NCBI GenBank assembly: GCA_043808325.1 | Contig: JAZDEY010000031.1 | Coordinates: 10,997-74,996, forward strand | Source of the DNA: Candidatus Eiseniibacteriota bacterium | GTDB taxonomy: Bacteria > Arandabacterota > Arandabacteria > Arandabacterales > Arandabacteraceae | Reading direction: 5' to 3' | DNA length: 64,000 nucleotides | Shown here: in pieces, positions 1 to 15,483 of the stretch | Position numbering within the stretch: position 1 is the stretch's first letter | Layout of the letters: each line of letters starts with the position of its first letter | The notes under the pieces: model-generated | Seen by the model: the letters and a program-made list of their open reading frames with translations, nothing else | What the model was told of the DNA's origin: nothing | Database searches by the model: none | Made by a program: the position numbers and the translations under genes

Positions 1-3000
1 GGTGAGTGGAATGCGACGTTGGACGGTGCTACGTATACTGGACAGTGGAAGGGCGTCGCACTGCTCGACTCCTCTCAACGCAGGATTGACCTAAGGGGGG
101 CAATATCGGGCGACCTGGTCGGTACCTGCGAAGGTTACATAGAGGAGTCTGCACCTGGAACGGGAATTTACAGCCAGTATCGGGCGAGCTGGGGGTTGAA
201 TAGCGTCGGCTCCGCTGCTGGTCCACGTGCTCTCGAGCTTAGTGGGGTTCTAGTCTACGACGGAGTGCGTGAGTCTCCAATTGCGCTCTCCATATACCAG
301 GGGCTGATGGAAGGGCAATTGCATGGCAGATACGCAGGACCGATGAATGCAATGGTGACGCGTGCCTGTGTGACCGATGGAAATGAGATGGAAGGGAAAG
401 GCTTCGCTGTGATCTCCTACAATTCCAGCCTGGGTTCTGGGCTCGGCTGGGGTTTTGTCGGCTCCTGTTCATCAATCCGAGGAGTGTGTGATGAACCGCT
501 CGCTGGGACGCTCTCCGCCTTTCTAGACACAGGGCAGTCGCCAGCAGAACTTCACGGCTTCATACACCGTGGCGATCCTGAGCAGTTTTTGCTGCCTGAT
601 CTACAGTTGACGATATGGGGGCCCGGCCGAGTTAGTCCGGGCCAGACAGTAGACTACCTCATCCAGTGCAGGAACGCTGGGTTGATGCCGACTGCAGATA
701 TCAGCATAGTCAGCAAGCTTCCCTATCTCGCAGAATATCTGACAAGCTCGAGTGGAGGTATCTATAATGTGGATGCTCAGGAACTCACATGGAACCTGGG
801 TAGCATACCTCCGACGTCGGTCAGACTGATGTCTTTTCGGGAGACAATGGCATGGGGCATCCCGGAGGGCAGTTCTGTTGAACACAGTGTTTACGCACCA
901 CTTGAGCGCACCGAGGTGCCAGTTGATTCAAATGTGACTGTCTCGTATGAGATTCTCGAAGAGAGCGAAGACTCTCTTGTAATCGAGGCGACTTTTTCCA
1001 GCAATACTGATAGCGGTAGCGTGCATCTGGCCCTCTCTGTTACCGACGTACCAGAGGAAGCAGAGCCACTTCTGAACGCTACTGAGATTCCTGGAGGCTT
1101 GGAATACCGTTGGGAATTCACCGTAGAAGGGCATTCGACGGACGTGATTAAGGCGGCTTTCGAGACATCGAGAGACGCTTCTGATATCACTGATCGATGG
1201 GTAGAGGTTCGGGATGCTAGAGTGGCTCAAGGAGAGCATCAAAGATTCCTGGACTGGCTTCGAGACGAAGGTCTAATCGGGCAGGAGACCCATTCAACCT
1301 ATACGTTCTGGAACGGCTTCAGGACCAGAATCCCTGTTATCCGTTGGCTTGTGAGTAGAGTGCCCAGATTTGGATGGATTGAAGGGTGGTTCCCAAAAGG
1401 CACCCCCTTTGGAAGCAGTTATGCCAACTCGATGTTGTGGGCCGAGATCTTGCCTAGTCTACAGTTCAAGTGGTATTCGGGCGAAATACCGTTTGAAGCC
1501 GATACCTTGGACAAATTGTATATGTTCTGGAAGCGAGAGATATCGTGTGGAACTGGCGATTGCGTTCATGATGCATCCTGGGCTGCCAGCACGATTACGA
1601 CTGCGCGCGATCCCAATATCAAGCATGGTCCTGCTGAAAGCATTCAGCCTGGTCAGACGTTGGAATATGAAATCGAATACGAGAATGAGGGAGAAGGTAT
1701 CGCATTCGGCGTTTACATCACAGACATTCTGGATGACGATCTTGATGAAACTAGTCTGACCATAGAAGATGGGGGCAGCTACGACGTCTCAACTCGCACG
1801 GTCACGTGGATGGTCGGACGAGTTGATCCTGGCCAGACGGGAACTGTCATCTTCAGCATCAACCTTAGGAGTAATGCGCTTCCTGGTACTGAGGTGATCA
1901 ACTATGCTACTGTGTACTTCCCTAGCGTCCCGGAGATCACGAGGACTAACGGCGTAGTATGCAGGGTCCCCGTGAACGAGCCGCCTATTGCAGATGCTGG
2001 GCCCGATCAGACAGTGGAATGCTCGTCCTGCGAAGGTGCTCAGGTGATCTTGGATGGATCGGGCTCAAGCGACCCCGACAACGACCCGCTGACCTTTGCC
2101 TGGTGTGAGAACGGCCACATCATCGCTGGCCCGATTGCCGACCCGATTTCTACTGTAGTACTTGCATGCGGCACCCACAACGTCGGGCTCACGGTCGACG
2201 ATGGTCAGGGCGAGAAGGACACCGATGAGGTCCTGATCAATGTGGTCGACACTACGCCACCGGTGATCACGGTTACTCTCAATCGGGATGTGCTCTGGCC
2301 GCCGAGCCACAAGCTGGCCGACATCATGGCCCACGTGGAAGTCAGGGACATCTGCGATCCGGCTCCAACCTTCGTGCTGGTTGCGATCACGAGCGACGAG
2401 CCGGACAACGGGCATGGAGACGGCGATACCCCGGGAGATGTTCAGGGTGCGGACTTTGGCACGCCGGACCTTGCCTTCCAGCTTCGGTCCGAGCGCAGCG
2501 GGGGCGGCGGCGGGCGGATCTACACGATCACCTACCTGGGCTTGGACCATTCCGGCAACTCGACCCCCGTCGAGGTCTATGTGCGTGTGCCGCACGATCA
2601 GTCCGGGATGGCGCTTGCCGCGCAGGGCTACAGCTCGGATGGCACTTGCTTTGATCCGGTGAGTGAGAGGTTTGCGGTTGTGATCCCATCGAGCGAGGCG
2701 GGGGCACTGGATGCCACCGGGATTGACCCCGCTAGAGCTTACATCGGGAACCTGAAGGGCGTCCTGGTCGCTCAGGATCACCTTGAGCTTGATGCCACCG
2801 ACGACGGCCTCAGGGATCTTGTGCTCTGGTATTCGCTGGTGGACGCTCAATGGCTGTTCGGATCCACGGTCATGAGTGCCGAGAATGCGTGGCTCCGCGT
2901 GGCGTTCGATCCCGAGGCGCCTGGCGCGCCCGTGGATCTAGGCGACCCGAGGGCGCCGTACGGTCCGGTCGGACTGCACTACGTGTGCGCTGACGGCATT

Positions 3001-3369
3001 GACTATCTTGTGCCGAACATCTTCCAGCTGGGAGTGCCGTTGCAGCTCGAGGGAGCAGTCAATGCTTCCGGTGTTGACGACCGGCCGATTCAGGGCACGG
3101 CGCTCTTGCCGATCCGTCCCAATCCTCTCCGCCAGACTACGATCATAGCTTTCAATCTGGCTGCGCCGGGATCGGTGAATCTTGACATCTACAATGTTCG
3201 GGGCATGCTCGTGCGAACGCTCGAAGACGGCGTGCTCACGGCCGGCGAGCACAGCTCGGCATGGGATGCCAGAGACTCGGTGGGGAGGCCCGTGGCCGCT
3301 GGGATCTATTTCGCGCGGTTCCGTGCAGGTGGCATCCAGACCATGCAGAAGATGTTGCTGGTGAGGTGA
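1..3369 (+). CDS. Large secreted/surface protein, T9SS cargo. Contains a DUF11-like conserved repeat, a PKD domain and Ig-like domains, and ends in a T9SS type-A (FlgD-Ig-like) C-terminal sorting domain. Probably 5'-partial: frame open to nt 1, first in-frame TTG at 19.
   Basis: ORF 19..3369 stays open upstream to nt 1. PKD-like segment 'ADAGPDQTVECSSCEGAQVILDGSGSSDPDNDPLTFAW'. C-terminus 'LPIRPNPLRQTTIIAFNLAAPGSVNLDIYNVRGMLVRTLEDGVLTAGEHSSAWDARDSVGRPVAAGIYFARFRAGGIQTMQKMLLVR' matches the T9SS/Por C-terminal sorting-domain pattern. Confidence 0.8.
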   Translation, partial: GEWNATLDGATYTGQWKGVALLDSSQRRIDLRGAISGDLVGTCEGYIEESAPGTGIYSQYRASWGLNSVGSAAGPRALELSGVLVYDGVRESPIALSIYQGLMEGQLHGRYAGPMNAMVTRACVTDGNEMEGKGFAVISYNSSLGSGLGWGFVGSCSSIRGVCDEPLAGTLSAFLDTGQSPAELHGFIHRGDPEQFLLPDLQLTIWGPGRVSPGQTVDYLIQCRNAGLMPTADISIVSKLPYLAEYLTSSSGGIYNVDAQELTWNLGSIPPTSVRLMSFRETMAWGIPEGSSVEHSVYAPLERTEVPVDSNVTVSYEILEESEDSLVIEATFSSNTDSGSVHLALSVTDVPEEAEPLLNATEIPGGLEYRWEFTVEGHSTDVIKAAFETSRDASDITDRWVEVRDARVAQGEHQRFLDWLRDEGLIGQETHSTYTFWNGFRTRIPVIRWLVSRVPRFGWIEGWFPKGTPFGSSYANSMLWAEILPSLQFKWYSGEIPFEADTLDKLYMFWKREISCGTGDCVHDASWAASTITTARDPNIKHGPAESIQPGQTLEYEIEYENEGEGIAFGVYITDILDDDLDETSLTIEDGGSYDVSTRTVTWMVGRVDPGQTGTVIFSINLRSNALPGTEVINYATVYFPSVPEITRTNGVVCRVPVNEPPIADAGPDQTVECSSCEGAQVILDGSGSSDPDNDPLTFAWCENGHIIAGPIADPISTVVLACGTHNVGLTVDDGQGEKDTDEVLINVVDTTPPVITVTLNRDVLWPPSHKLADIMAHVEVRDICDPAPTFVLVAITSDEPDNGHGDGDTPGDVQGADFGTPDLAFQLRSERSGGGGGRIYTITYLGLDHSGNSTPVEVYVRVPHDQSGMALAAQGYSSDGTCFDPVSERFAVVIPSSEAGALDATGIDPARAYIGNLKGVLVAQDHLELDATDDGLRDLVLWYSLVDAQWLFGSTVMSAENAWLRVAFDPEAPGAPVDLGDPRAPYGPVGLHYVCADGIDYLVPNIFQLGVPLQLEGAVNASGVDDRPIQGTALLPIRPNPLRQTTIIAFNLAAPGSVNLDIYNVRGMLVRTLEDGVLTAGEHSSAWDARDSVGRPVAAGIYFARFRAGGIQTMQKMLLVR

Positions 3370-3790
3370 GGGATCGTCCTCGATTCGGGGACAGGACCCG
3401 GCCGGGACTTAGGGCCCGGCCGCTCTAGGTTGCGAGCCTGGCCGCCTCGTCATGATCGATGAAGCAGCCAGGCTTCTTAGTAACCCTCTTTCTGGATGGG
3501 CGGGAACCAAGAGTCTTTGATGGTTGCTTTTCTCCCTGATGGGACCAGTGGGGTTGGTCCTGCCCATCCGACAGATGTCCTCCCACTCAGGTTGTCAAGG
3601 GGCTGACAATAGCCGGATGCGCGGAGGATGCCCCCACGAGGATTGCGCGATGGCGGAGCTTCCCCCCGTTGGTTGGACAGTTTCTGGGGTAGAATAAGCT
3701 AATTTTTGGTCGCTCGTCCACCTCCTTGTTCTGACTCCTTGGCGCCCCCGGAGTGGCGGACACACCACCCGAATTCTGACCCTCGGCACC

Positions 3791-4033
3791 TTGTTTGAGC
3801 CTCCTGCGACCACCGGCGACTGGGTCACCAACCACCAAAACGTGATCGTCACTGGCCCCACCGGCTGCGGCAAGACCTTTGTGGCCTGCGCCCTCGCACA
3901 CAAGGCGTGTCGGCAGGGCCATCGGGCCATCTACTTCTATGCACCCAAACTCTTCCGCAGCCTTACCCTCGCTCAGGCTGACGGCAGCCTACCCAGCCTC
4001 CTTAAGAAGATCGCCAACACCTCTACCTCCGTC
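3791..4033 (+). pseudogene. istB: Truncated IS21-family IstB (transposition helper ATPase) fragment. Only the Walker-A region survives; downstream ORF sequence is low-complexity and non-homologous.
   Basis: 'NVIVTGPTGCGKTFVACALAHKACRQGHRAIYFYAPKLFRSLTLAQADGSLPSLLKKIA' matches the IstB Walker-A/ATPase core. The N-terminal ~100 aa and C-terminal half are absent. The translation turns into S/T/P-rich low complexity after ~aa 80. Confidence 0.6.
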
Positions 4034-4276
4034 CTCGCCGTCCCTGCCAAATCCACCGCTTCCATCACCAACTCCCATCTCGCCCTGCACTCTAAACTAT
4101 CCTCGGTTCACTGTCTCACCATTATTGGCAGAGAGGGTCAGCAGGAAGCTATCACCTGCGGAGTCATAGGCAAGACGGGCTGCCTCATTGCGTCAACCTT
4201 GAACCGTGATGCTTCAGGCAGACCTCGGGGTCACATCCAACGCCCTATCACCTCGAGTGCGGTGACGCTCTGTTGC

Positions 4277-5269
4277 TCAGACTCTCCCGGATAAGTATCT
4301 CGCCATAAGGGGGAGCATTCGATTGAGGTTCCCTATCGTTCCCCCACGTTTGTCAGCTCTCCCCCCGAATTCTATGGGAAGATAGGTCTTCCAGACATCG
4401 AGCTCGAAATCATCCTCATCAGTAGCTTCGCTACCCACAAAGCTACTCAACAAGCGCCCCGTATCCTTGTCCTCGAAGAGGTGGTACAAGTCTGGGTGTT
4501 CCGAGATGAGGCCGCGCACTACCGACGGATAAGTTAGGAGGAACTGCCTGAGTCCATAGAAGTTCCTGTGAATGTGACCCTGCAGATTAGACTGGCCCAG
4601 AGCCCGGTCATAGACTACATCTGCTGCCTCTTCGGGTTGCTGCTGAAGCCATGTCTTGAAAGCTTCGTAGTCACCAAAACGGGGATTCATATCACGAGAA
4701 ACCTGAGGAATCCGGTCTTCCTGTGATACCGGTAGTTGTCTCCTCCTGCGCTCCCGCTGGTATCGCCGAACGCCAGCCCGGTGCTTCCGAACGTAATCGG
4801 AGAGTTCATCAAGGGTAGTGGCTCTCAGCCCCACTCTATAACCATCAAGCGCCTTCCTAAGCCGCTCCACCACTCTGAGGGATTTCGTCCGTTGGATGAC
4901 CTCATCCCCGCCACCAAAACCCCGAACGGAGAAATTGGAGCTTCCTACGAGCGCTTGAGCACTGCCTATGTAGACCTTTGCGTGTGCCAACGGACTGGTG
5001 TAGAGACTGACTCTGGTTCCAGCCTCTAAACAGCCCTGGAGCATCTCGAGAAGTGCGTCCGGAGCCACCAGCCCCTTCTTCCATTCATCTGGTGAGTCCA
5101 AGTCAAGTCTGCACATGAAGTTGAACCGTGCAGGCGTGAATCTTACTTTAGAGAATGCCCCTGTAGAGTAGAACCCGGTTGCGAAGTCGAGCCGTCCTCC
5201 GTCGAGCCCAATCCGTTCAAGGTCAAGAAAGGTGGGCCCCGCTATCAGGTCAAAGTCCCTCAGCCTCAT
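4277..5269 (-). CDS. PLD-superfamily (single HKD-like motif) protein, putative nuclease. The C-terminal ~200 aa are uncharacterised.
   Basis: HKD-like motif 'HAKVYIGSAQALVGSSNF' (HxK...GSxN) near the N-terminus. ATG at 5269 preceded by GGAGG 7 nt upstream on the minus strand. Divergent from the MTase gene. Confidence 0.55.
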   Translation of the reverse strand: MRLRDFDLIAGPTFLDLERIGLDGGRLDFATGFYSTGAFSKVRFTPARFNFMCRLDLDSPDEWKKGLVAPDALLEMLQGCLEAGTRVSLYTSPLAHAKVYIGSAQALVGSSNFSVRGFGGGDEVIQRTKSLRVVERLRKALDGYRVGLRATTLDELSDYVRKHRAGVRRYQRERRRRQLPVSQEDRIPQVSRDMNPRFGDYEAFKTWLQQQPEEAADVVYDRALGQSNLQGHIHRNFYGLRQFLLTYPSVVRGLISEHPDLYHLFEDKDTGRLLSSFVGSEATDEDDFELDVWKTYLPIEFGGRADKRGGTIGNLNRMLPLMARYLSGRV

Positions 5270-5480
5270 CTGGAACCTCCTCGAGAATCAACAGACAGCA
5301 TAAGCCTGCTATCGCCTGCTCACGCCTGAGTATATTCCAGCCTCCTCCCCACATCAACCCCGCCCCGCTGGTCTGGTCGTCAGTCCAGAATGAGATATTG
5401 CAGTCTCGGGCACAATGGAATACTATCTGCGTGACTTGTGTGGGATGAACGTGGCTTCTGCTTAGGGCTATGGTGACACC

Positions 5481-8321
5481 TTGTTCAGAGAAGAGGTAAT
5501 AAACGTCAAGATGGCAGAGCTCCTCTGCGATTACGGTCTTGACGCCATTCCCGAGACGATTACTCCACATAAGAAGCTGCCGGACGTCAGCATTCTGGTG
5601 CGAGGCACAAAGCTAATCCTTGAAGGTAGGAAAGCCTCTCAGAGAGCTCAGCTTGAGAAAGACGCCAAGGGCAGGATTGAGCAGGGATTGTGTGACATCA
5701 GTATGGCGATTGTGTATCACCCCGAGCTTTATGCCTGCACAACGACCGAGAAGCTGGCAGATAGCCTAAGAGTCTATTCCTACGGGGGTCGTCTCTTCTA
5801 TCAGACGAAGGAGGGAATCAAGCAAGAAACGCTTGCCGGGGTGGACATCGAGACTCTTGTAGCGTCGATTAATGCCGGGGTGAGCCTGCTTGTGGACAGT
5901 GACGTCCTCGCGGCGACAGTCGATGAAGTAAAGGGCAAATTGGAGCAGATAGTCGAGTATGCCTCGGCTGGCAGCTTCTGGTTCGACGAGACAGTAATCG
6001 CACGCCTTAAGGAAGCTCTCGGGCTTGAGGAAGAAGATGAAACAGAGAAATTCAAGAAAGACCTTATAAGGATAGCTATGTTCGTTCTGTTTGACGGGAT
6101 GGTCTTTCATGAGATGATAGCCAACTGCCGCATCAAGGTGGACTCGCTCACCCTTTGCTCAGAATCGCAAAAGCTATTCTTCGATGATGAGTGGAAAAGG
6201 ATTCTGAAGATAAACTATGAACCAATATTCAATCTCGCGTTCTGCATCCTCAGTGCGCTTCCAACGGGTAGCCCGGAAACCGAGAGTCTGCTGAAGAACT
6301 TGCGAGAACTGGCACTTCGAACCGTGGCGACAGGCATCCTCCGAAAACACGACTTCATGGGAAGGATATACCACAAGCTTCTGCTCAAGACCACGGGGAA
6401 GTATTACGCCACCAATTACACGGCAGTTCCGTCTGCCTACCTGTTGGCCTATCTGCTCTACAAGACTCCCAGCGACAGTCTGCCCCTGTCGAGCATGAGA
6501 GACTTGAAGGCAATGAGGATTATAGACCCGGCCTGTGGCTCGGGGACTCTGCTGTCAGCGAGCTATGTAGCGCTGAGAGACATTTATGCATGCGTGCTCA
6601 CGGCAGATGAGTTACCTGACTTTCACAAGACCCTTCTGCAGAAGACCATCTATGGATGGGATGTCCTGGACTATGCAACCCATCTGACGCTGACCGTTTT
6701 GGGGCTTCACAGCACACCCACCTTGGTCAGGAAGACCAATATGACCACGCTCGCCAATGGCGCCGATGATACGGGCACTTACTTGGGCAGCCTCTCATAC
6801 TTGAATCTTCACGCATCCCTTAAGGGGAAGACATGGGTGAAGCCTTCGAAGACCCAGTCTATGGACAAGGTGACCCAGACCTATAAGCCGATGAACATAC
6901 CACCGGGCACATTCAACGTAGTCATAATGAATCCGCCTTTCTCGAGGAGCGCTAAGCCGAACTGCAAGTTCGGATACAAGTCAGAGGTCATCAAGAAGAG
7001 GATGGCCGCAGAGCTGGCGAAAATCCTCGTCTACAGTGGACTGGATGGAACTGGCCAAGCGGGTCTAGGAGCCCCGTTCATCGGCCTCGCAGACAACCTC
7101 TTGAAGCCGGGCGGGCGATTAGGTGTCGTAATACCTCGTGCCATTCTGTCAGGTGTCTCATGGAAGAAAATCCGGGATCTCCTCCACAAAGACTACGAGA
7201 TTAGATACATAATCTCGAACCATGACCCTGGAGACCGGGCAAGTGGCGTGGAGCCCTGGAACTGGAGTGAGGATACTGACTTGGGCGAGGTTATGATTAT
7301 CGCTGAGAAGACCACTAAGCTTCCGGCAGACAGAGAAACGGTTTACGTCAACCTCTGGAACAAACCAAGAAATGAAGTTGACTCGATACTTATATCTCAT
7401 CAGATTGTTTCGAAGCGCCCCGAGGGACTCCTCAGCGAAGGCGTGTTTGAGACTTTGAAGATGAAGCGGGATGTGGAAGTGGGCACTTTCTACAGACTCC
7501 GGCAATCGGAGCTTGCTGATGGCTGGCTCGCTCCTTGCTTGTTTGCCAACCCCAGCCTTAACAGATTCACGATGGAGCTGAGGCAGATGTTGCCGACTGC
7601 CGGCATCCACGGCCTTCTGAAGACCTGGAGCTCAATGAACAAGACAGGTCCTGTGCGGTGCTTTGACGGTGTTGATATCAAGCAAGTGAAAACCGCCTTC
7701 GAGCAAACCTCGGTGCAAACAGAGTTCCCTATCCTGTGGGGGCAACAGTCGGCAATGAATCGGCTCTATCTCGGTGAGGATTTCATCGGATATGGCAGGG
7801 CCAAGTCTGCCGATTCCGCTCGATTGCACGAGATTAACAAGTCCTCGTTTATCCTATCTGAGCGGCCTCATCTTCATAATGATGCTCTGATAGCTTTCAG
7901 GACAGCAAGAGCGGTGCTCACTACGGCGTTCTGGGAGCTTGGGTTTCGAGATGCTGAGATAGAGCCTCTAATGCTCCTATGGTTTAATTCCACCTTCGGG
8001 TTGCTCCTATACCTGTCAGCCTCTACGAGCAGCATGGGCGAGATTTTCAAGACCAAGAAGGCCCAGATGAGCCTCATGAGGGTTATTGACCCTGGTAAGC
8101 TCAAGGAAGGGGCCTCCGTCAGGAGCGCCGAGTTATTCAAGGCTATCAATGAGAGGGAGTTCAGGGCGTTTCCCGAAGAGTTCGCGCTCGCTGCAAAGGG
8201 CGAGGGTCTAAGGGCCGAGGTTGACAAGTTCTTTAGCGACGAGCTCGAGCTTGCTTATGACTTAAGGCCATACTACGAGATGTTGGCAAACGAGCCCGCA
8301 CTGACACTCAAGCGCCTCTGA
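5481..8321 (+). CDS. Large gamma-class N6-adenine DNA methyltransferase fusion protein. Candidate single-chain Type IIG/IIL (MmeI-like) restriction-modification enzyme: N-terminal putative nuclease region, central MTase, C-terminal target-recognition region.
   Basis: SAM-binding motif I 'IIDPACGSGTLL' (~aa 355) and catalytic motif IV 'VIMNPPFSRS' (~aa 485). Order I then IV with ~130 aa spacing is typical of the gamma class. Size (946 aa) and domain order parallel MmeI/BpuSI-type enzymes. N-terminal 'LPDVSILVRGTKLILEGRK' is a possible degenerate PD-(D/E)xK. TTG start at 5481, alternative ATG at 5511. Confidence 0.6.
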   Translation: MFREEVINVKMAELLCDYGLDAIPETITPHKKLPDVSILVRGTKLILEGRKASQRAQLEKDAKGRIEQGLCDISMAIVYHPELYACTTTEKLADSLRVYSYGGRLFYQTKEGIKQETLAGVDIETLVASINAGVSLLVDSDVLAATVDEVKGKLEQIVEYASAGSFWFDETVIARLKEALGLEEEDETEKFKKDLIRIAMFVLFDGMVFHEMIANCRIKVDSLTLCSESQKLFFDDEWKRILKINYEPIFNLAFCILSALPTGSPETESLLKNLRELALRTVATGILRKHDFMGRIYHKLLLKTTGKYYATNYTAVPSAYLLAYLLYKTPSDSLPLSSMRDLKAMRIIDPACGSGTLLSASYVALRDIYACVLTADELPDFHKTLLQKTIYGWDVLDYATHLTLTVLGLHSTPTLVRKTNMTTLANGADDTGTYLGSLSYLNLHASLKGKTWVKPSKTQSMDKVTQTYKPMNIPPGTFNVVIMNPPFSRSAKPNCKFGYKSEVIKKRMAAELAKILVYSGLDGTGQAGLGAPFIGLADNLLKPGGRLGVVIPRAILSGVSWKKIRDLLHKDYEIRYIISNHDPGDRASGVEPWNWSEDTDLGEVMIIAEKTTKLPADRETVYVNLWNKPRNEVDSILISHQIVSKRPEGLLSEGVFETLKMKRDVEVGTFYRLRQSELADGWLAPCLFANPSLNRFTMELRQMLPTAGIHGLLKTWSSMNKTGPVRCFDGVDIKQVKTAFEQTSVQTEFPILWGQQSAMNRLYLGEDFIGYGRAKSADSARLHEINKSSFILSERPHLHNDALIAFRTARAVLTTAFWELGFRDAEIEPLMLLWFNSTFGLLLYLSASTSSMGEIFKTKKAQMSLMRVIDPGKLKEGASVRSAELFKAINEREFRAFPEEFALAAKGEGLRAEVDKFFSDELELAYDLRPYYEMLANEPALTLKRL

Positions 8322-8822
8322 GCAATGGTCGCCCCCGACAGGCTTGTGCAAGACCCTTCCCCTGTTTGCCGTCAGATGAAAGTGGACACGAGAGGGGTAT
8401 AATCTAAGCTGCACTTTGGAGGTCTTCTTGGCCTCAGCCCATTCCTTGTAACTGATTTTTTCACAATGGGTTAGGAGATTCTGCAATTGGCTTGGCGGTG
8501 TTCGTCTAATTGCTTCAATATCAACGAGATGCAGAAAACGAGACCAACGTGAAACCAATTCTACATTCGAGGCATCTTTCTGCCTTCTCGTCGCTTCTTC
8601 ATCTCTCGCTGTCTTCCTGGTTCTCCTCAGTCGCATTTGGGACAAACGAGTCGATAGTCCTCTCAATCAGATCACTTTCCTTTCGGATCGCGCAGACAGA
8701 TACGTAGCTAGTACCCGCAGAATGACCGGGGGGCGGATGTTGCCCATGGCGTTCTTTGGAGGTGCACACAATCCCGGGGAATTGCTGCTCATCTTCCGAG
8801 ATATAGGAACACGAAGGGTGGG

Positions 8823-11630
8823 GTGGTGCTCTCTCATGGGATGGTTGCCACCAGTTCGAACTCCACCACTGGTTGTATTGCGTCCACGGCATCGGCATGC
8901 CTGAGGAGGCAGGGGAAATCCGAGGATGCCCTGGCCCTCCTCGAGGGGCTGATCCCTTCGTTCGAGGGCCGCGGGAGACGCGACCTACTTGCCGAGAAGG
9001 CCACGCTACTTTGTCTTGTCGGTAGGTACGGCGAGGCCGGGGATATCTGTGAGATGGTTCAGCGGGAGGAATCCGTCAGTGAGCGCTGCAAGGATGCCGG
9101 TGTGTATCTCGTCCTCGGCCACGTCCTTTCGAGGCTCTGCAAGTGGAAGCAGGCAATTGCTTGTCTGGAGCATGCGGCCACTTTCGCCAGGATGTCCGGC
9201 GATGCAAGTGCTCTGGGGAACGCTCTCAACAATCTTGGAATCGTTTACAAGAATCTGTGCAGATTTGATGACTCGGCAAGGTTACTGCGGCGGGCAGTAC
9301 GGGTAGCTCGGCGCACGCGTGACGATGCGAGTCTTTCAGTGCGGCTCCTCAATCTCGCCACAACCCTCTTTAAGCAGGGTGAGATCCAAGAGGCCGATAG
9401 CGCAGTTTCCGAATGCATCAAGATCTCGTCGCTTCTCAGTCTTAGACGGACCCAGAGTCTGGCGACGATATGCAGGGCAAGGATTGAGAAGGTGCGGGGC
9501 AGGCTTGGGGAGGCGGTTAGCCTGCTCAAGCGGGTGATAGCTGAAGCCCAGTCGCTTGACGAGCCGAGAGTGGGGCTCCTGGCAGAGGAAACCCTGGGGG
9601 AAGTTCTCTGCGAACAGGGTGACCTCTCCCAGGCTCGGCGAGTGCTTGAAGAGTGTCTCGGGAAGGTCCCCGAGCATGCCAAGGACCTAGAGGCCGAAAT
9701 CAAGTGCCGGCTTGCGGAAGTCTATCTGGCGCTGGGGACGAAAGACCGGGCACGACGCTGCGGCACCGAGGCCCTGAAAGTTGCCGAGTCCACTGGTGAT
9801 CTCTATGAGGCCGCCAGGTGTCTTCGCGTGCTGGCGGGGACCGCGGCAACCCCGGCGGACGCAGCGAAGCTGCTTTCCAAGGCCGATCATACCTTCGCCC
9901 AAATGGGAGCCAGGCTGGAGCGCGCTCTGACTCTTGAGGCAAGGGCCGCCTTGGCCGGAGTCTTTGAGTCGACCCGGGCCAAGACGGTGGAAGAGGCCAT
10001 ATCGGTGCTTGAGATCTGCTGCGCTCACGGCAGATTGACGCGCGCCCTTTGTCTGGCAGCTTCGATCTATCTGGACGAGGGGCGGGATCATGACGCCATG
10101 ATGTCGCTCAAGAAAGCCGAGGACCTGGCAGGCGAGTCCACGCTCAAGCGCGCGGTCTCACAGGTGCGCGTGAAGCTCGACCGGCGCCTGTCAGAGAAAC
10201 TGGTGTGGCCTGCGGAGGCAGGCCTGGCTACCGCGCAAGAGGCCTTCGCTTTTCTGCGCACGAGGCTGGGTGCGACCGGCTTGATCCTGGGAAAACCGAG
10301 TGAGGATGGACCTCCCGAAGTGGTCACCGCCCTGGGGATAGATCCGGAGACCGCCGTCGGGTTGCTCAAAGCTGTCTCCGCGCGTGGTCCGGGTCCGGTG
10401 GTCTCGACCAACGTGACCGATCTGGCCCCCACTCTTGGGGCTCGCCCCGCCTTAAGGTCGCTCCTGGGCGTCAGCCTCGGCGCCGGCGCCTCAGATGCCC
10501 TCTGCTTGACATGCTGGCCGTCGGGCGGCAAACTGGGCCTTCATTCGGAAATCTCGTATCTCGTCGAGGCATATTATGAGATCCTCCGGCTCGCGCCTGT
10601 TCTTGAGCGAGCCATGTTGCCCGGTCGCGAATGCGTGGTGCCGATCTGCCTGGGTGGCATTCTGACTGCCGATCGGCGGCTGAAGGAAATCCTGTTGTCG
10701 CTTGCGAAGATCGCACGCACACGCGCCAACGTACTCGTCACCGGCGAGACCGGGACCGGCAAAGAGCTGGTAGCTCGAGTCATTCATGCCCTGAGCCCAA
10801 GGAAGCGTGAGCCTTTCGTCGTGCAGAACTGCGCCGCCTTGCCTGAGAGCCTCCTGGAGAGTGAGCTCTTTGGATACCGTCAGGGAGCTTTTACCGATGC
10901 CCGGACCGAAAAGCGTGGTCTCTTGGAGACCGCGAGCGGGGGTACCTTCTTTCTCGATGAGATCGGAGACATCTCTGCGTCGACACAGGCCAAGATGCTC
11001 AGGGCGATCGAGAGTGGAGAGATCAGGCGGCTCGGGGACACAGTGGCTCGTCCCGTAGATGTTCGTTTCATAAGTGCCACCAACAAGCAACTCGAGCAGG
11101 AGGTGGAGCGGGGGCAGTTCCGCCGCGACCTCTACTACAGACTGAATGTTGTCGCGCTCGCACTTCCACCCTTGAGGGACCGAAGAGGCGACATCGCTCT
11201 TCTGGCCAGGCTTTTCCTCAAACGCCTGGAAGGGCGGGGACGTAAGTGCTCCCTTCGGATTGATCCCGGGGCCATGCGCGCTCTCGCCAATTACACCTGG
11301 CCCGGCAACGTGAGGCAGCTTGAGAATGAGATCCAGCGGGCGGTCGCCATCCTTGGCTCCGATGATGTCGTCGGCGTGGGCTCACTCTCCCCATCGGTCA
11401 CCGGGCACGGGATCGGCGGCCAGGTGACCACCCTGAAGGATGAGGTTCGCCTTGTCGAGCGGTCGCGGATTCTTAGCGTGCTTGAGAGGTGTGCTTGGAA
11501 CAAGACCCATGCCGCCAAGATGCTCGGCGACCTCAGCCGTCCGGCCCTGATCGGCAAGATGAAGCGGCTTGGGATCCCGCTTGCCAGGCCTGACGCTCAG
11601 GGGCAGCGGCTCTCGCCTCTCGGCGGCTAG
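8823..11630 (+). CDS. Sigma-54-dependent transcriptional activator (bacterial enhancer-binding protein) with a long N-terminal TPR-like sensory region and a C-terminal Fis-type HTH.
   Basis: AAA+ sigma54-interaction domain: Walker A 'VTGETGTGKELVARVIH', 'GYRQGAFTDA' (GAFTGA variant), 'GTFFLDEIGD', 'RRDLYYRLNV', 'WPGNVRQLENEI'. C-terminal HTH 'HAAKMLGDLSRPALIGKMKRLGI'. Exact start uncertain (8823 or downstream). Confidence 0.85.
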   Translation: MVLSHGMVATSSNSTTGCIASTASACLRRQGKSEDALALLEGLIPSFEGRGRRDLLAEKATLLCLVGRYGEAGDICEMVQREESVSERCKDAGVYLVLGHVLSRLCKWKQAIACLEHAATFARMSGDASALGNALNNLGIVYKNLCRFDDSARLLRRAVRVARRTRDDASLSVRLLNLATTLFKQGEIQEADSAVSECIKISSLLSLRRTQSLATICRARIEKVRGRLGEAVSLLKRVIAEAQSLDEPRVGLLAEETLGEVLCEQGDLSQARRVLEECLGKVPEHAKDLEAEIKCRLAEVYLALGTKDRARRCGTEALKVAESTGDLYEAARCLRVLAGTAATPADAAKLLSKADHTFAQMGARLERALTLEARAALAGVFESTRAKTVEEAISVLEICCAHGRLTRALCLAASIYLDEGRDHDAMMSLKKAEDLAGESTLKRAVSQVRVKLDRRLSEKLVWPAEAGLATAQEAFAFLRTRLGATGLILGKPSEDGPPEVVTALGIDPETAVGLLKAVSARGPGPVVSTNVTDLAPTLGARPALRSLLGVSLGAGASDALCLTCWPSGGKLGLHSEISYLVEAYYEILRLAPVLERAMLPGRECVVPICLGGILTADRRLKEILLSLAKIARTRANVLVTGETGTGKELVARVIHALSPRKREPFVVQNCAALPESLLESELFGYRQGAFTDARTEKRGLLETASGGTFFLDEIGDISASTQAKMLRAIESGEIRRLGDTVARPVDVRFISATNKQLEQEVERGQFRRDLYYRLNVVALALPPLRDRRGDIALLARLFLKRLEGRGRKCSLRIDPGAMRALANYTWPGNVRQLENEIQRAVAILGSDDVVGVGSLSPSVTGHGIGGQVTTLKDEVRLVERSRILSVLERCAWNKTHAAKMLGDLSRPALIGKMKRLGIPLARPDAQGQRLSPLGG

Positions 11631-11729
11631 CCGCAAGATAGCGGGAGCACACTCGGCACGGAGACAGGGCGCACCAGCCGGGGGATGTTTCGCTTGACTT
11701 GCGCGTGTGAGCGACCATAGACTCAGGGC

Positions 11730-13034
11730 GTGAGCCCGGGAGAGAACGCGACACACACTAAGCCATTCGTTTTCAGGTATGGAAGGGGGGAGATCTCTCT
11801 TCGCCTGGACGGCGAGTGGCCGGTGAAGGTCGTGTCTCCTCGAGTGCCGGGGAGCGAGCCGGACCTTCCATCCCTGGTGCTCGACTCCCTCCAACGACCC
11901 ATTGCTACGCCGCCGCTGGCGACCCTTGCCGGGGATGCAAGAAGCGTCGTCATTTCAATCCCCGATGGCACGCGGCCGCCTGTTGCACGCACGATCCTGC
12001 CCCCGGTGATCGAGGAATTGCTGCGGGCCGGAGTGGACCTCGCAAAGATCAAGATCTTCATTGCCGCCGGTGTTCATGCCGGCACAACGCCCGAGGACCG
12101 TCGCCGCTTGGTGGGCGACGGCGTCTCACCGGCGATTGAGATCGTCGAGAACGATTGCCGCAAGGCCGCCGGTTTTGTGCCGGTGGGAAGGACACGGCGA
12201 GGCACACCCGTTGTGGTCAACCGCCTTGTCCGCGAGGCGGACCTCAATGTCGTAATCGCGCCCCTGGCTCTCCACTATTTCGCCGGCATGGGTGGCGGCA
12301 GGAAAATGATCGTGCCGGGCGCCTGCAATGCCGAGACCGCTCGCGCCAATCACCGCCTGACCTTGAGCGATCGTGGCGAGATTCACCCGATGTGCCGGAG
12401 CGGCGTGCTTGAGGATAACCCCGTGCATGAGGACATGGTCGAGGGGATGAGTTTCCTCAATAACATCTTCTTGATCAACGTGATTCTGGATGGCTGGGCC
12501 CGCCCCTGCGACATCGTCTCGGGCGATGCGGTCAAGTCCTACCTTGAAGCGGCTACCCGCGCCCGGGGCCTGCTTGAGGTCCCTGTGGGCCCGAGGTGTG
12601 ATCTGGCCGTTGCGGGCGCCGGAGGGCATCCCTTTGATACCAACGTGATCCAGGCCCACAAGTCGATCGATCACGCCGCCGCAAGCGTGAGGGACGGAGG
12701 GGTGGTGGTCGTGGCTGCGGAGTGCGCTGCCGGCATAGGTTCCGATACTTTCCTGCCGTGGTTCGGCCTGGGTGACGCGCGGGCTGTCTCCCGTAGGCTC
12801 CTTGCTCAGTATGAGCTCAACGGTCACACCGCGCTTGCTCTAATGCAGAAGCTGGAGCGATTGAAGATAATACTGGTCTCATCACTCGATCGATCTTTGG
12901 TCGAACGGATGGGAATGATCCTCGCACGAAGCCTCGATGAGGCTGTATCGCTTGCAGGGGCCTACGTGGGGAAGAAGCCGTTGACTTACATTCTCCCGAT
13001 GGCATGGGGCATCTTACCGGTGGCCGAGGGGTAA
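11730..13034 (+). CDS. LarA-like (DUF2088) nickel-pincer-cofactor-dependent racemase/epimerase family protein
   Basis: Size (~430 aa) and N-terminal architecture ('FRYGRGEISLRLDGEWPVKVVSP...ISIPDGTRP') resemble the lactate racemase LarA family. No larBCE in the window. GTG start. Confidence 0.45.
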   Translation: MSPGENATHTKPFVFRYGRGEISLRLDGEWPVKVVSPRVPGSEPDLPSLVLDSLQRPIATPPLATLAGDARSVVISIPDGTRPPVARTILPPVIEELLRAGVDLAKIKIFIAAGVHAGTTPEDRRRLVGDGVSPAIEIVENDCRKAAGFVPVGRTRRGTPVVVNRLVREADLNVVIAPLALHYFAGMGGGRKMIVPGACNAETARANHRLTLSDRGEIHPMCRSGVLEDNPVHEDMVEGMSFLNNIFLINVILDGWARPCDIVSGDAVKSYLEAATRARGLLEVPVGPRCDLAVAGAGGHPFDTNVIQAHKSIDHAAASVRDGGVVVVAAECAAGIGSDTFLPWFGLGDARAVSRRLLAQYELNGHTALALMQKLERLKIILVSSLDRSLVERMGMILARSLDEAVSLAGAYVGKKPLTYILPMAWGILPVAEG

Positions 13035-13036
13035 GC

Positions 13037-13594
13037 ATGGTGGCTCGACACCTCCGTCATGAACTGAGGAATGCCAGGGTGGTTTTGGCGCGGCTGGCTC
13101 CGTGGGCCTACGGGCAGTTGATTGCCCTTGCCGCGCTTCTGATTGTGGCGGGCTGCGCCGGCATGACGCCGGCACCGATCTTCACTGCACGAGAAGTACC
13201 GGTCGCAACCAGCCTCCCCGAGGTCGCCCGGGAGGACCTCTTGAATGAACTGAGCATGTATCATGGGGTGCCCTACCGCGAGGGTGGGGACTCCATGAAG
13301 GGCACCGACTGCTCCGGGCTTGTGATGCAGGTCTTCGGTCCCCTCGGCGTAAAGCTGCCGAGGACCGTTGCCCTACAATTTGAATCGGGCGTTTCGGTAG
13401 GAAGGCGGGATGTGAAGACCGGGGATCTGGTTTTTTTCGGTGGCGGTCGCATCCCCGATCATGTCGGGGTGGCCGTATCGAGCGACGAGATGGTCCATGC
13501 CTCATCCTCCAAGGGTGTGGTCCTGGAGAAGATCGATTCGTTCGCCGAGTCGGCCGAATTCCACGGCGCGAGAAGGGTCGTGAACCTGCGATAA
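13037..13594 (+). CDS. NlpC/P60 (C40) family cell-wall peptidase lipoprotein
   Basis: Lipobox 'LLIVAGCAG'. Catalytic Cys context 'GTDCSGLVMQVF' and downstream His ('IPDHVGVAV') are typical of NlpC/P60. Confidence 0.8.
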   Translation: MVARHLRHELRNARVVLARLAPWAYGQLIALAALLIVAGCAGMTPAPIFTAREVPVATSLPEVAREDLLNELSMYHGVPYREGGDSMKGTDCSGLVMQVFGPLGVKLPRTVALQFESGVSVGRRDVKTGDLVFFGGGRIPDHVGVAVSSDEMVHASSSKGVVLEKIDSFAESAEFHGARRVVNLR

Positions 13595-13633
13595 GAGGCA
13601 CGCGTCGGAAGTGCGGGAACAAGGAGTGCGAGC

Positions 13634-14935
13634 GTGAAGATTGCGATCATCGGTTCGGGCGGCAGAGAGCACGCCCTCGGCTGGAAGCTCGCGGGCGAGG
13701 AAGCTACCAACGAGATCACATTCTTGCCCGGCAACGGGGGGACCGCTGAGATCGGCACCAACGTCGAGATCGGTGCGACCGACGTCAAGGCGCTGACGGA
13801 CTTCGCAGTACGGGCGCGCCCCGATCTCATAATCGTAGGCCCCGAGGATCCGCTCGCCCTCGGGCTTGTGGATCGTCTTGCCGACCACGGCCTCACGGTC
13901 TTCGGGCCCACCCAGGCGTGCGCCAAGATCGAGACCAGCAAGATCTTCGCCAAGCAGCTGATGTCCAAGTTCGGAGTGCCGACGGCGCCCTACAAGGTCT
14001 TCACCTCCGAGGCGCGGGCGCACGCCTGGATCGAACGCGCCACAAAGCAGCTTGTGGTAAAGGCCGACGGACTCGCGAAGGGCAAGGGCGCGATCGTTAC
14101 CAAGGAGAGGGCCGACGCCCACAGAGCTGTGGAGATGATGCTGGCGGAAAAGGTCTTCGGGCCGGCCGGTGAGGCCATCTTGATTGAGGAACGCCTCACG
14201 GGCGAGGAAGTCTCGGTGCTCGCCATAACCGACGGCCACAGGTATGCGCTGTTGCCCCCTTCACAGGATCATAAGCCCATTTTTGACAAAGACCGGGGAC
14301 CCAACACCGGTGGGATGGGTGCATATTGTCCTGCTCCCCTGGTTGATCGTGATACCCTCGGTCGCATCGAGGACGTGATCATTAAGCGATTCCTGAAAGG
14401 CCTCGCCAAGCAAGGTCTCGCGTACCGAGGGGTCCTCTATGCTGGGCTGATGCTCAATGAGGACGGCGTCTATGTGATCGAGTTCAACGCGCGTTTCGGT
14501 GATCCCGAGACGCAATCGATCCTGCCGGCCATTGATGCCGACCTGGGCGGTCTCCTGGCGGATGCAGCTGCCGGGAATCTCAAGAAGACCCAAAGGATCA
14601 AGCCGTCGAGGTGGGCGGTCTGCGCGATCGCGGCATCGGGGGGTTATCCCGACGCTTACGAAACCGGCAAAGTGATCACGGGCATTGCCGAGGCGGCTCG
14701 GCCCGGCGAGGTGATCGTATTTCACGCCGGGACCAAGCGTCTCCCCGACGGGCGCCTGGTGACCTCGGGAGGTCGGGTGCTTGGAATTACAGGGGTGGGC
14801 ACGACGCTTCGTCAGGCGCGGCGAAGGGCCTATGAAGCAAGCCATATCGTGCGATTTGCAGGCATGCATACGCGCACCGACATCGGGCTCAAGGGCCTGA
14901 GAAGACTTCACAAGGCGGGGGTGATCCAAAGTTGA
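13634..14935 (+). CDS. purD: Phosphoribosylamine--glycine ligase (GAR synthetase)
   Basis: 'MKIAIIGSGGREHALGWKL' N-terminus, ATP-grasp core, ~430 aa. GTG start with AAGGAG 8 nt upstream. Confidence 0.95.
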   Translation: MKIAIIGSGGREHALGWKLAGEEATNEITFLPGNGGTAEIGTNVEIGATDVKALTDFAVRARPDLIIVGPEDPLALGLVDRLADHGLTVFGPTQACAKIETSKIFAKQLMSKFGVPTAPYKVFTSEARAHAWIERATKQLVVKADGLAKGKGAIVTKERADAHRAVEMMLAEKVFGPAGEAILIEERLTGEEVSVLAITDGHRYALLPPSQDHKPIFDKDRGPNTGGMGAYCPAPLVDRDTLGRIEDVIIKRFLKGLAKQGLAYRGVLYAGLMLNEDGVYVIEFNARFGDPETQSILPAIDADLGGLLADAAAGNLKKTQRIKPSRWAVCAIAASGGYPDAYETGKVITGIAEAARPGEVIVFHAGTKRLPDGRLVTSGGRVLGITGVGTTLRQARRRAYEASHIVRFAGMHTRTDIGLKGLRRLHKAGVIQS

Positions 14936-15393
14936 GCAGACCTGAGGTTGCAGTCTTGATGGGTAGCCAGTCTGACATGCCCGTTATGGAACGGGCCACC
15001 AAGATGCTTGACTACTTCGGGATTGGCTACAGAACCTTTGTGCTCTCGGCACATCGGAGCCCAAAGAAGACGCGTGAGTTCGCCCACACGGCGCGCAGGC
15101 AGGGTATCAAAGTCATAATCGCGGGCGCCGGCATGGCGGCTCACCTGCCGGGTGTCCTGGCGTCGGAGACGACCCTGCCGGTGATCGGGGTTCCGCTTGC
15201 GCGATCCGCGCTCGGTGGACTCGATTCGCTCCATTCGATAGTGCAGATGCCTTCGGGGGTGCCGGTCGCAACGATGGCAATCGGTGAGGCCGGGGCCGCC
15301 AATGCAGCGATTCTTGCCGCCGAGATTCTTGCGCTGTCCGATCGGCGCCTCGAGAAGAAGCTCCGTGCCTACAAGCGAACCCTCGCTCGTTAG
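14932..15393 (+). CDS. purE: N5-carboxyaminoimidazole ribonucleotide mutase
   Basis: 'VAVLMGSQSDMPVME...SAHRSPKKTREFA...KVIIAGAGMAAHLPGVLASETTLPVIGVP' is the canonical PurE pattern. TTG start overlaps the purD stop. Confidence 0.95.
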   Translation: MSRPEVAVLMGSQSDMPVMERATKMLDYFGIGYRTFVLSAHRSPKKTREFAHTARRQGIKVIIAGAGMAAHLPGVLASETTLPVIGVPLARSALGGLDSLHSIVQMPSGVPVATMAIGEAGAANAAILAAEILALSDRRLEKKLRAYKRTLAR

Positions 15394-15483
15394 CCGGTGT
15401 CCGCGCTCCGGCTTGGGGTGGTATGCTCGCAGGGAGAGGCTTAAGTTGCGTCGCGTTGCTTTGAGACTGCGGGGTCGAAGCCT

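What the first reader, a model, noticed from the sequence alone, without database searches (positions are those of the whole stretch)
3370..8822. AT-richer accessory island with an IS21 remnant and a restriction-modification-like gene pair inserted between a T9SS cargo gene and a sigma54 activator
By eye, the DNA from ~3.4 to ~8.8 kb is markedly less GC-rich than the flanks (e.g. 'gaagaggtaataaacgtcaagatggcagagctc', long A/T runs at 8400-8720). It contains a truncated istB (IS21 helper) fragment with no intact istA, a divergently transcribed PLD-family nuclease-like gene and a 946-aa N6-adenine MTase fusion. It ends in ~500 bp of non-coding AT-rich DNA before the sigma54 activator. This is the signature of a horizontally acquired defense islet. 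It is the only place in the window where gene orientation breaks.
Basis: partly seen in the sequence, partly recalled or inferred. Interest (0 to 1): 0.7.

Follow-up and report, generated by a model that had tools for sequence, protein, structure and literature searches.

The report
Strain-specific restriction-modification islet with extra nuclease
A roughly 5-kb lower-GC DNA segment in an uncultured Eisenbacteria genome carries a restriction-modification enzyme and an unnamed companion nuclease; it replaced three native genes and cut off the start of a neighbouring regulator gene, so it is an ordinary kind of defence islet with one unusual component.

Summary
GC drops to 0.529 over 4034-8884, against 0.596±0.014 for same-size windows elsewhere. 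However, 3370-4033 has native GC (about 0.61). A 70-codon internal IstB (IS21) fragment sits at 3812-4021, with no istA and no terminal repeats.

The minus-strand gene 4277-5269 is a PLD/HKD-fold nuclease with a conserved helical C-terminal domain that no library names. The gene 5481-8321 encodes a single chain with Type IIG-like architecture: a PD-(D/E)xK-fold N-terminal domain, a helical linker, a gamma-class N6-adenine methyltransferase (DPACGSG, NPPF) and a C-terminal region.

A 98.5%-identical contig and two more distant relatives lack the islet. At that position they carry mntP, a minus-strand flippase gene, a ~100-aa gene and an intact activator. The islet therefore replaced native DNA, and its right edge (~8885) lies inside the sigma54-activator gene, removing 69 conserved codons.

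Across other genomes the methyltransferase unit usually occurs without the PLD gene. The PLD family, in contrast, always sits beside a methyltransferase-containing R-M module, mostly Type III Mod/Res with an SNF2 helicase. It is best read as an accessory nuclease.

Verdict: a horizontally acquired R-M islet. The kind is known; the PLD companion is a new variant.

The parts
3370..3811 (.). Unassigned spacer after the cargo gene stop. GC is native-like (0.61) and no gene is recognisable.
   Evidence: GC. Six-frame translation shows only short open stretches. No Pfam hit on any segment or ORF. No Rfam or tRNA match.
3812..4021 (+). Internal fragment of an IS21-family IstB helper ATPase. About 70 codons with Walker A (GPTGCGKT); the N-terminal part, Walker B and the C-terminal part are missing. 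It lies inside the chance read-through ORF 3791-4294.
   Evidence: Pfam IstB_IS21 1.1e-17, profile positions 85-154 of 238. NCBIfam IS21_help_AAA 7e-21, 75 bits against a cutoff of 200. GC 0.62 and GC3 0.80. No istA and no terminal repeats. No other IS21-like sequence elsewhere in the window.
4034..4276 (.). Left junction zone: unassigned DNA between the IstB fragment and the stop codon of the PLD gene. GC starts to fall here (0.57).
4277..5269 (-). 330-aa PLD/HKD-superfamily nuclease-fold protein with one HKD unit (H96, K98, G109-S110-x-N112, E123; motif at nt 4987-4928). It also has a highly conserved all-helical C-terminal domain (aa ~150-330; GHIHRNFYG at nt 4579-4553, GNLNRMLP at nt 4333-4310). 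It is full length relative to its homologs.
5270..5480 (.). 211-bp divergent intergenic region between the PLD gene and the R-M fusion gene. Presumed to hold the promoters of both genes.
   Evidence: ORF map. One weak sigma70-like match on the minus strand at 5357-5329, no better than the shuffled expectation.
5481..8321 (+). 946-aa single-chain R-M-type enzyme with a TTG start (MFREEVIN matches the N-termini of homologs). Aa 1-~125 (nt 5481-5855) form a PD-(D/E)xK-fold domain with E5, P34-D35, E48-G-R50-K51. Aa ~125-270 form a helical linker. The gamma-class N6-adenine methyltransferase has motif I DPACGSG (nt 6525-6545) and motif IV NPPF (nt 6930-6941). Aa ~600-946 form a conserved C-terminal region, presumed to recognise the target.
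8322..8884 (.). Right-hand tail of the islet: 563 bp, GC 0.512, no recognisable gene or RNA. It holds a sigma70-like match at 8376-8403 and the GTG at 8823 that could restart the truncated activator.
   Evidence: No similarity to any fetched locus.
8885..11630 (+). Native DNA resumes here. This is the sigma54-dependent activator (TPR + AAA+ + HTH_8) lacking its first 69 conserved codons. The junction with the islet is at ~8885-8888.
   Evidence: blastn: L005 2733-9446 equals window 8885-15598 at 98.5% identity, and nothing upstream aligns. N-terminal alignment with P0241-P0257. Sequences across the junction. Pfam domains.

Best explanation
Window ~4034-8884 is a strain-specific, horizontally acquired restriction-modification islet in a Candidatus Eisenbacteria genome.

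It did not simply insert. It replaced at least 2.7 kb of ancestral DNA (mntP, a minus-strand Wzx/MurJ-type flippase gene, a ~100-aa gene and the first 69 codons of the sigma54 activator). Only an internal scrap of an IS21 istB gene remains at its left edge.

The cargo is a two-gene module.

(a) The 946-aa protein has the architecture of Type IIG/IIL enzymes such as BpuSI, DrdV and MmeI: an N-terminal PD-(D/E)xK nuclease domain, a helical linker, a gamma-class N6-adenine methyltransferase and a C-terminal target-recognition region. By inference it binds a short asymmetric site, methylates adenine on host DNA and cuts unmethylated incoming DNA near the site.

(b) The divergently transcribed 330-aa protein has one HKD unit. 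By inference it forms a homodimer with a metal-independent nuclease site, as Nuc and BfiI do. It also has a conserved helical C-terminal domain. By inference it is an accessory or second nuclease of the R-M module, comparable in role to DrmC in DISARM, and not the sole restriction subunit.

Shown here: composition, domain folds, motifs, absence from relatives, truncation of the activator, and gene-neighbourhood statistics. Inferred: all enzymatic activities, the target site, the role of the PLD protein, and the involvement of IS21 in the rearrangement.
For: Composition: GC 0.529 against 0.596±0.014.

Organism and intactness: the 946-aa and 330-aa proteins are identical to NCBI entries from a Candidatus Eisenbacteria MAG contig of 81,230 bp. 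Both are full length relative to their homologs.

Synteny: L005 is 98.5% identical from window 8885 onward and has flippase, a 103-aa gene and an intact 983-aa activator upstream. L006 and L007 show the same arrangement. Those genes are absent from the whole window. The window's activator lacks the conserved 69 N-terminal residues.

Methyltransferase: Eco57I and N6_Mtase above the Pfam cutoffs, with motifs DPACGSG and NPPF invariant.

PLD linkage: it lies within 0-179 bp of this methyltransferase family in the window, L003, L024/L025, L037, L118 and L119, in co-directional, convergent and divergent orientations. The other 17 informative PLD loci sit inside or beside Type III Mod/Res operons, often with a DrmD-like SNF2 helicase. 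No informative PLD locus lacks a methyltransferase.
Against: No enzymatic activity, methylation motif or phage or plasmid restriction has been measured.

The canonical lysine of the PD-(D/E)xK motif is R in the window (E48-G-R50-K51) and varies across the family (K, R, E, W), so nuclease activity of the N-terminal domain is not assured.

The PLD motif has S103 in the window (G/S across the family) where the canonical HxK(x)4D has aspartate.

The left boundary of the islet cannot be fixed, because no close relative covers it. The cargo gene is not demonstrably the ancestral neighbour.

There is no integrase, tRNA, direct repeat or IS end, so the acquisition mechanism is unknown.

The GC difference is moderate (about 7 points), and part of the neighbouring cargo gene is equally low.

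The contig comes from a metagenome assembly, and read support for the two junctions was not available.
Confidence: 0.72

Rival explanations
1. Classical two-gene Type II-like R-M system. The PLD protein is the only restriction endonuclease, as in BfiI or the R-proteins of NgoAVII and CglI. The N-terminal PD-(D/E)xK-like domain of the methyltransferase is catalytically dead and serves as a DNA-binding or coupling domain.
Against: 76 of 80 genome loci of the methyltransferase family have no PLD gene within 6 kb, yet keep the N-terminal domain fused or adjacent. The unit therefore works without PLD in most lineages. D35 and E48 are invariant, and a basic residue is always present at position 44 or 50. 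The idea that ExR variants need PLD fails, because L119 has ExK together with PLD. The same PLD family also sits in Type III operons that already encode a Res nuclease.
Confidence: 0.17
2. Not a defence system. The 946-aa protein is an orphan, regulatory (epigenetic) methyltransferase, and the PLD protein is an unrelated neighbour, for example a phospholipid or nucleic-acid housekeeping enzyme.
For: No activity data exist. The PLD superfamily includes lipid enzymes. PLDc_2 scores below the Pfam gathering threshold.
Against: The PLD fold matches nucleases best (NucT, SauUSI, Nuc). Weak matches to the defence PLD models DpdK, ZacB and DrmC occur in 25-43 of 44 family members. The PLD gene lies next to a DNA methyltransferase in every informative locus. 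Neighbours in other loci are defence genes: EcoRII plus a C5 methyltransferase in L002, GmrSD in L119 and an integrase in L003. The methyltransferase always comes with a nuclease-fold domain.
Confidence: 0.05
3. Assembly artefact. The junction at ~8885, and/or the one near 4030, is a chimeric join in the metagenome assembly, so the islet and the truncated activator are not contiguous in any real genome.
For: The contig comes from a MAG. The left junction coincides with an IS fragment, which is a typical place for misassembly. No coverage data were available.
Against: A graph chimera needs a shared k-mer. Left of 8885 the window shares nothing with L005 or with the rest of the window. No repeat sits at 8885. 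The reading frame stays open from 8712 through the junction. No second IS21 copy is present in the window.
Confidence: 0.06

Closest known systems
Type IIG / IIL single-chain R-M enzymes (BpuSI, DrdV, MmeI, Eco57I family)
   Different: Sequence similarity is confined to the methyltransferase motifs (E ~1e-8). MmeI_Mtase scores just below its cutoff. The catalytic lysine position is R here. In most relatives the nuclease domain is a separate ~200-aa protein, giving a split form. A PLD companion gene is not part of the known Type IIG systems named here (from my own knowledge of the field).
DrmC, the PLD nuclease of DISARM (and DpdK of the Dpd system)
   Different: The helical domain is C-terminal here, but N-terminal in DrmC. 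There is no DrmA or DrmB (DUF1998) partner in the window or in the loci inspected. HMM scores are far below family level (best ~1e-7).
PLD-family restriction endonucleases BfiI and R.NgoAVII / R.CglI
   Different: Their second domain is a B3-like beta-barrel that reads the DNA sequence, whereas here it is all-helical. NgoAVII and CglI need an ATPase N-protein, and none is present in the window.
IS21 family insertion sequences
   Same: A 70-residue stretch matches IstB at E 1e-17 to 7e-21.
   Different: It is only an internal fragment. There is no istA, no Walker B, no ends and no target duplication. It is not a functional or delimitable IS.

Membership tests
Genomic island acquired by horizontal transfer | Base composition differs from the host genome | tested here: met
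   GC 0.529 over 4034-8884, against 0.596±0.014 (minimum 0.568) for same-size windows. GC3 is 0.59-0.64, against ~0.70-0.77 for most native genes sampled (range 0.65-0.77).
Genomic island acquired by horizontal transfer | Absent from the orthologous position in close relatives | tested here: met
   L005 (98.5% nucleotide identity), L006 and L007 have mntP, flippase and a ~100-aa gene there, and no methyltransferase or PLD gene.
Genomic island acquired by horizontal transfer | Mobility signatures: integrase or transposase, tRNA target, flanking direct repeats | tested here: not met
   Only an internal IstB fragment is present. There is no tRNA in 1-14000, no significant direct or inverted repeats and no integrase.
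IS21 insertion sequence | Intact istA transposase and istB helper, bounded by terminal inverted repeats | tested here: not met
   IstB profile positions 85-154 of 238 only. NCBIfam gives 75 bits against a cutoff of 200. No istA appears in any frame. No inverted repeats.
Type IIG/IIL R-M enzyme | Gamma-class N6-adenine methyltransferase core with an AdoMet motif followed by NPPF/NPPY | tested here: met
   DPACGSG at aa 349-355 and NPPF at aa 484-487, invariant in 41 homologs. Eco57I scores 33.7 bits (cutoff 25.3) and N6_Mtase 31.4 bits (cutoff 20.4).
Type IIG/IIL R-M enzyme | Nuclease domain in the same polypeptide with an intact PD-(D/E)xK catalytic site | tested here: inconclusive
Type IIG/IIL R-M enzyme | Sequence-specific cleavage at a fixed distance from the site and methylation of the same site | not testable with these tools
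   Requires biochemistry or a methylome.
PLD (HKD) superfamily nuclease | HxK(x)4D(x)6GSxN motif and the PLD fold | tested here: met
DISARM (DrmC) | Co-occurrence with DrmA helicase and DrmB (DUF1998) | tested here: not met
   The islet has no helicase or DUF1998 gene. The window's PLD protein has no PADLOC DrmC hit at E <= 0.01. Family members reach only weak hits.
MADS (MAD2 methyltransferase) | Score above the NCBIfam equivalog cutoff, and the other mad genes nearby | tested here: not met
   49.1 bits against a cutoff of 720. No other mad genes are in the islet.
BREX (PglX) | PglX-level similarity plus PglZ, BrxC and related neighbours | tested here: not met
   28.3 bits against a cutoff of 500. 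The islet has only two genes.
Type III R-M | Mod (beta-class N6_N4 methyltransferase) plus Res helicase-nuclease | tested here: not met
   Neither is in the window. They are present next to PLD homologs elsewhere, in L004, L014, L016, L021, L026 and L027.

The most novel reading that the evidence does not exclude
The 330-aa PLD protein with its helical C-terminal domain belongs to an unnamed, widespread family. This family may be a dedicated plug-in nuclease for R-M systems whose known members act on asymmetric sites. It sits beside Type III Mod/Res operons with a DrmD-like SNF2 helicase, and beside split or fused Type IIG-like enzymes. It would then be a DrmC-like third component that adds a second, metal-independent DNA-degrading step or a backup against anti-restriction. 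This would define a composite 'R-M plus PLD' class not covered by PADLOC v2, Pfam or NCBIfam.
Probability: 0.3. Interest if true: 0.6.

Novelty: new variant of a known kind. Interest (0 to 1): 0.42.

Why it matters
For this genome, the finding gives a concrete recent event. A defence islet overwrote a manganese exporter gene, a polysaccharide flippase gene and the start of a sigma54 activator, so defence gain came with loss or rewiring of native functions.

More generally, the companion PLD protein matches no named model at family level in the defence and family libraries searched. Yet it sits next to a DNA methyltransferase in every informative locus examined, across two mechanistically different R-M classes. 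If it is a functional third component, R-M annotation pipelines are missing a recurrent part of these systems.

The methyltransferase family also offers natural split and fused versions of a Type IIG-like enzyme, many of them in Bathyarchaeia and other uncultured lineages. These are useful for studying how nuclease and methyltransferase are coupled.

Tried and rejected
1. Exact-sequence look-ups of the window's 946-aa and 330-aa proteins found no record. The homology search then identified them.

2. A genome-contig scan with the activator N-terminus found no relative. Synteny was obtained instead from homologs plus contig look-ups.

3. Hypothesis: PLD compensates for a dead N-terminal nuclease, so ExR variants carry PLD and ExK variants do not. 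At first 4 of 9 ExR loci and 0 of 72 other loci had PLD (Fisher p = 8e-5). I rejected it as a rule. L119 has ExK with PLD. L034, L038 and L046 have ExR without PLD. The signal is also confounded by phylogeny.

4. The search for IS21 ends and target duplications gave only short matches at chance level.

5. No istA remnants appeared in any frame.

6. A strand-calling script based on GC phase was too noisy; it did not even flag the PLD gene. I discarded it.

7. PLD and methyltransferase families were scanned in viral contigs: 0 and 4 hits. There is no evidence that phages carry the module.

8. The afdb50 fold library was unavailable.

9. The tail 8322-8884 and the spacer 3370-3811 match nothing in Pfam, NCBIfam, Rfam or the fetched loci.

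10. MANTIS/Gao_RL and the BREX-related systems in recent papers were read and do not describe this module. A 2025 R-M review does not mention such a PLD partner.


Full report
**Source.** The 946-aa and 330-aa proteins of the region are 100% identical to NCBI entries from a Candidatus Eisenbacteria MAG, on a contig of 81,230 bp.

**Composition.** The window as a whole has GC 0.590. The block 4034-8884 has GC 0.529. Same-size windows elsewhere average 0.596 (sd 0.014, minimum 0.568) (profiles).
- By gene, GC is 0.544 for the PLD gene (GC3 0.59) and 0.522 for the methyltransferase gene (GC3 0.64). The native genes sampled have GC3 of about 0.65-0.77.
The stretch 3370-3790 has GC 0.606, and the IstB fragment has GC 0.62 and GC3 0.80, which is native-like.
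- Low GC is not unique to the islet. The first 2 kb of the cargo gene has GC 0.531 and GC3 0.549.

**IS21 remnant.** ORF 3791-4294 matches IstB (Pfam 1.1e-17; NCBIfam IS21_help_AAA 7e-21).
- The match covers only residues 8-77, which correspond to profile positions 85-154 of 238 and include Walker A (GPTGCGKT). The Walker B region that should follow is unrelated sequence.
- No frame of 3370-3811 shows IstB N-terminal or IstA similarity.
- No terminal inverted repeats or target duplications were found.
- No second IS21-like sequence exists in the window.
- It is an internal scrap of ~210 bp, not a delimitable element.

**The PLD gene (4277-5269, minus strand).** Pfam gives only a sub-threshold PLDc_2 hit, but the family is large: 120 listed homologs of 317-350 aa.
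- H96, K98, G109, S110, N112 and E123 are invariant.
- The C-terminal half is even better conserved (GHIxRNFYGLRQ, WKTYLP, GGTIGNLNRMLPL).
- The AlphaFold model is confident (pLDDT 96.3).
- PADLOC, Pfam and NCBIfam have no model for the family. Members give only weak DpdK, ZacB and DrmC matches.

**The 946-aa gene (5481-8321).** Eco57I and N6_Mtase score above their Pfam cutoffs.
- Motif I (DPACGSG, aa 349-355) precedes motif IV (NPPF, aa 484-487), followed by a long conserved C-terminal region. This is the gamma-class order.
- Profile search of the PDB finds PglX/BrxX, BpuSI and BsaXI through the methyltransferase core only.
- Homologs come in two lengths: ~940-960 aa, and ~750 aa lacking the first ~190 residues.
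- In L003 those residues are a separate 200-aa gene directly upstream of the short methyltransferase (38% identity, E 1e-41).
- An exhaustive search with the domain found 244 clusters, mostly stand-alone ~190-200-aa proteins, the rest fused.
- The modelled domain (pLDDT 89) has the alpha-beta-beta-beta-alpha-beta core of restriction endonucleases. E5 lies in helix 1, P34-D35 at the start of strand 2, and E48-G-R50 in strand 3.
- D35 and E48 are invariant. The lysine position is K, R, E or W, and a basic residue is always present at position 44 or 50.
- The protein therefore has the architecture of a Type IIG/IIL R-M enzyme. Whether the nuclease site is active cannot be decided here.

**Is the pair a unit?**
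- From the methyltransferase side, 281 relatives were found in 185,579 species genomes. In the 80 loci fetched, the N-terminal domain is fused or adjacent in all except three cut loci. A PLD homolog lies within 6 kb in only one of them, L037 from Elusimicrobia.
- From the PLD side, 26 metagenome loci plus look-ups were examined. The PLD gene lies 0-179 bp from this methyltransferase family in the window, L003, L024/L025, L037, L118 and L119. Orientations are co-directional (overlapping or ~15 nt apart), convergent and divergent.
- In the other 17 informative loci the PLD gene lies inside or beside a Type III-type operon. That operon has a Mod gene (PADLOC MTase_III 3e-206) and a Res gene (REase_III 2e-216), often with a DrmD-like SNF2 helicase (3e-186).
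- No informative PLD locus lacks a methyltransferase.
- So the methyltransferase unit is self-sufficient in most lineages, and the PLD protein is a recurrent add-on to complete R-M modules. This favours an accessory or second nuclease over a sole restriction subunit.
- A tempting correlation (PLD only with ExR variants, Fisher p = 8e-5) fell when L119 showed ExK with PLD.

**Synteny and boundaries.** The sigma54 activator has a 99%-identical ortholog (P0241, 983 aa) on contig L005.
- blastn aligns L005 2733-9446 to window 8885-15598 at 98.5% identity, and nothing upstream aligns.
- L005, L006 (58% amino-acid identity) and L007 (62%) share the same order: mntP, a minus-strand Polysacc_synt flippase, a ~100-aa gene, the activator (~975 aa), larA, an NlpC/P60 gene, purD, purE.
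- mntP, the flippase gene and the small gene are absent from the whole window.
- The window's activator lacks the 69 N-terminal residues (MHDPRQP...LGDLCLAVGNL...) that are conserved in eleven orthologs. Its first 21 residues from GTG 8823 are unrelated (sequences).
- The islet's right edge is therefore at ~8885, inside the activator gene. The event was a replacement of at least 2.7 kb, not a simple insertion.
- The left edge cannot be fixed. No close relative covers it, and the window's cargo gene shares only the C-terminal sorting domain with L006's cargo gene.
- A minus-strand gene (the flippase) is ancestral at this position, so an orientation break here predates the islet.

**Other checks.** There are no tRNA genes in 1-14000 and no Rfam matches in 3300-9000. 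Promoter and terminator matches are at the shuffled expectation. The PLD family is absent from 2.9 million viral contigs, and the methyltransferase family occurs in four.

**Literature.** Papers on BREX-related systems, MANTIS and YprA/DISARM, and a 2025 R-M review, do not describe this PLD partner. The YprA preprint notes that DrmC combines a PLD domain with a Cas11-like helical bundle. That is the closest analogy to the domain pair seen here.

**Verdict.** This is a real, strain-specific R-M islet of a known general kind. It was acquired with collateral loss of native genes and truncation of a regulator. Its enzyme is a new member of the Type IIG-like architecture. The conserved, unnamed PLD companion is the only element that goes beyond routine.

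Noticed in passing
window 19-2000 (5' part of the cargo gene, which runs off the window start): This part has GC 0.531 and GC3 0.549. The 3' part (2001-3369) has GC 0.624 and GC3 0.739. The gene looks compositionally mosaic, so the variable region may extend left of the islet.
   Followed up: partly
window 8823-11630: The sigma54 activator is 5'-truncated by 69 conserved codons, which include the first TPR-like helix. The frame stays open back to 8712. GTG 8823 with a GAAGGG-like upstream sequence could restart translation, and a sigma70-like match lies at 8376-8403. It is unknown whether the gene is still expressed or functional.
   Followed up: partly
L075:1975-7738 and L076:1512-7302: Two full-length fused methyltransferase genes of the family lie in tandem in Desulfococcaceae and Desulfobacterales MAGs. 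They may be paralogs with different specificities.
   Followed up: no
N-terminal domain, window aa 42-51 (nt ~5604-5633) and homologs in L034-L113: The basic residue appears to migrate. When position 50 is E, position 44 is always R (GLRxxIEGE). When position 44 is S, T, N or F, position 50 is K. This suggests a relocated catalytic Lys/Arg in this PD-(D/E)xK family.
   Followed up: partly
L014, L016, L021, L026, L027 (PLD homolog loci): A recurrent operon contains a DrmD-like SNF2 helicase, a Type III Mod gene, the PLD-family gene and a Type III Res gene. PADLOC v2 has no model for its PLD member. L027 additionally carries a gene matching PADLOC Orf5/HEC-06/SspE-type models (E 6.6e-192 to Orf5).
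   Followed up: partly
L002, L119, L003, L001: Family members sit in defence or mobile contexts. L002 has EcoRII, a C5 methyltransferase and MazE. L119 has GmrSD next to the PLD gene. L003 has a tyrosine integrase. L001 has a VapE-like primase and an Enc34-type ssDNA-binding protein.
   Followed up: no
L039-L078 (genome-contig hits): A large share of the closest genome hits for the methyltransferase family are archaeal MAGs (Bathyarchaeia, Njordarchaeota, Brockarchaeota, Nitrososphaerales). Most have the split form with an ExK motif.
   Followed up: no
L005:9447-9606 against window ~15599 onward: The 98.5% alignment between L005 and the window stops about 160 nt before the end of L005. This may be a second strain difference downstream of purE.
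   Followed up: no
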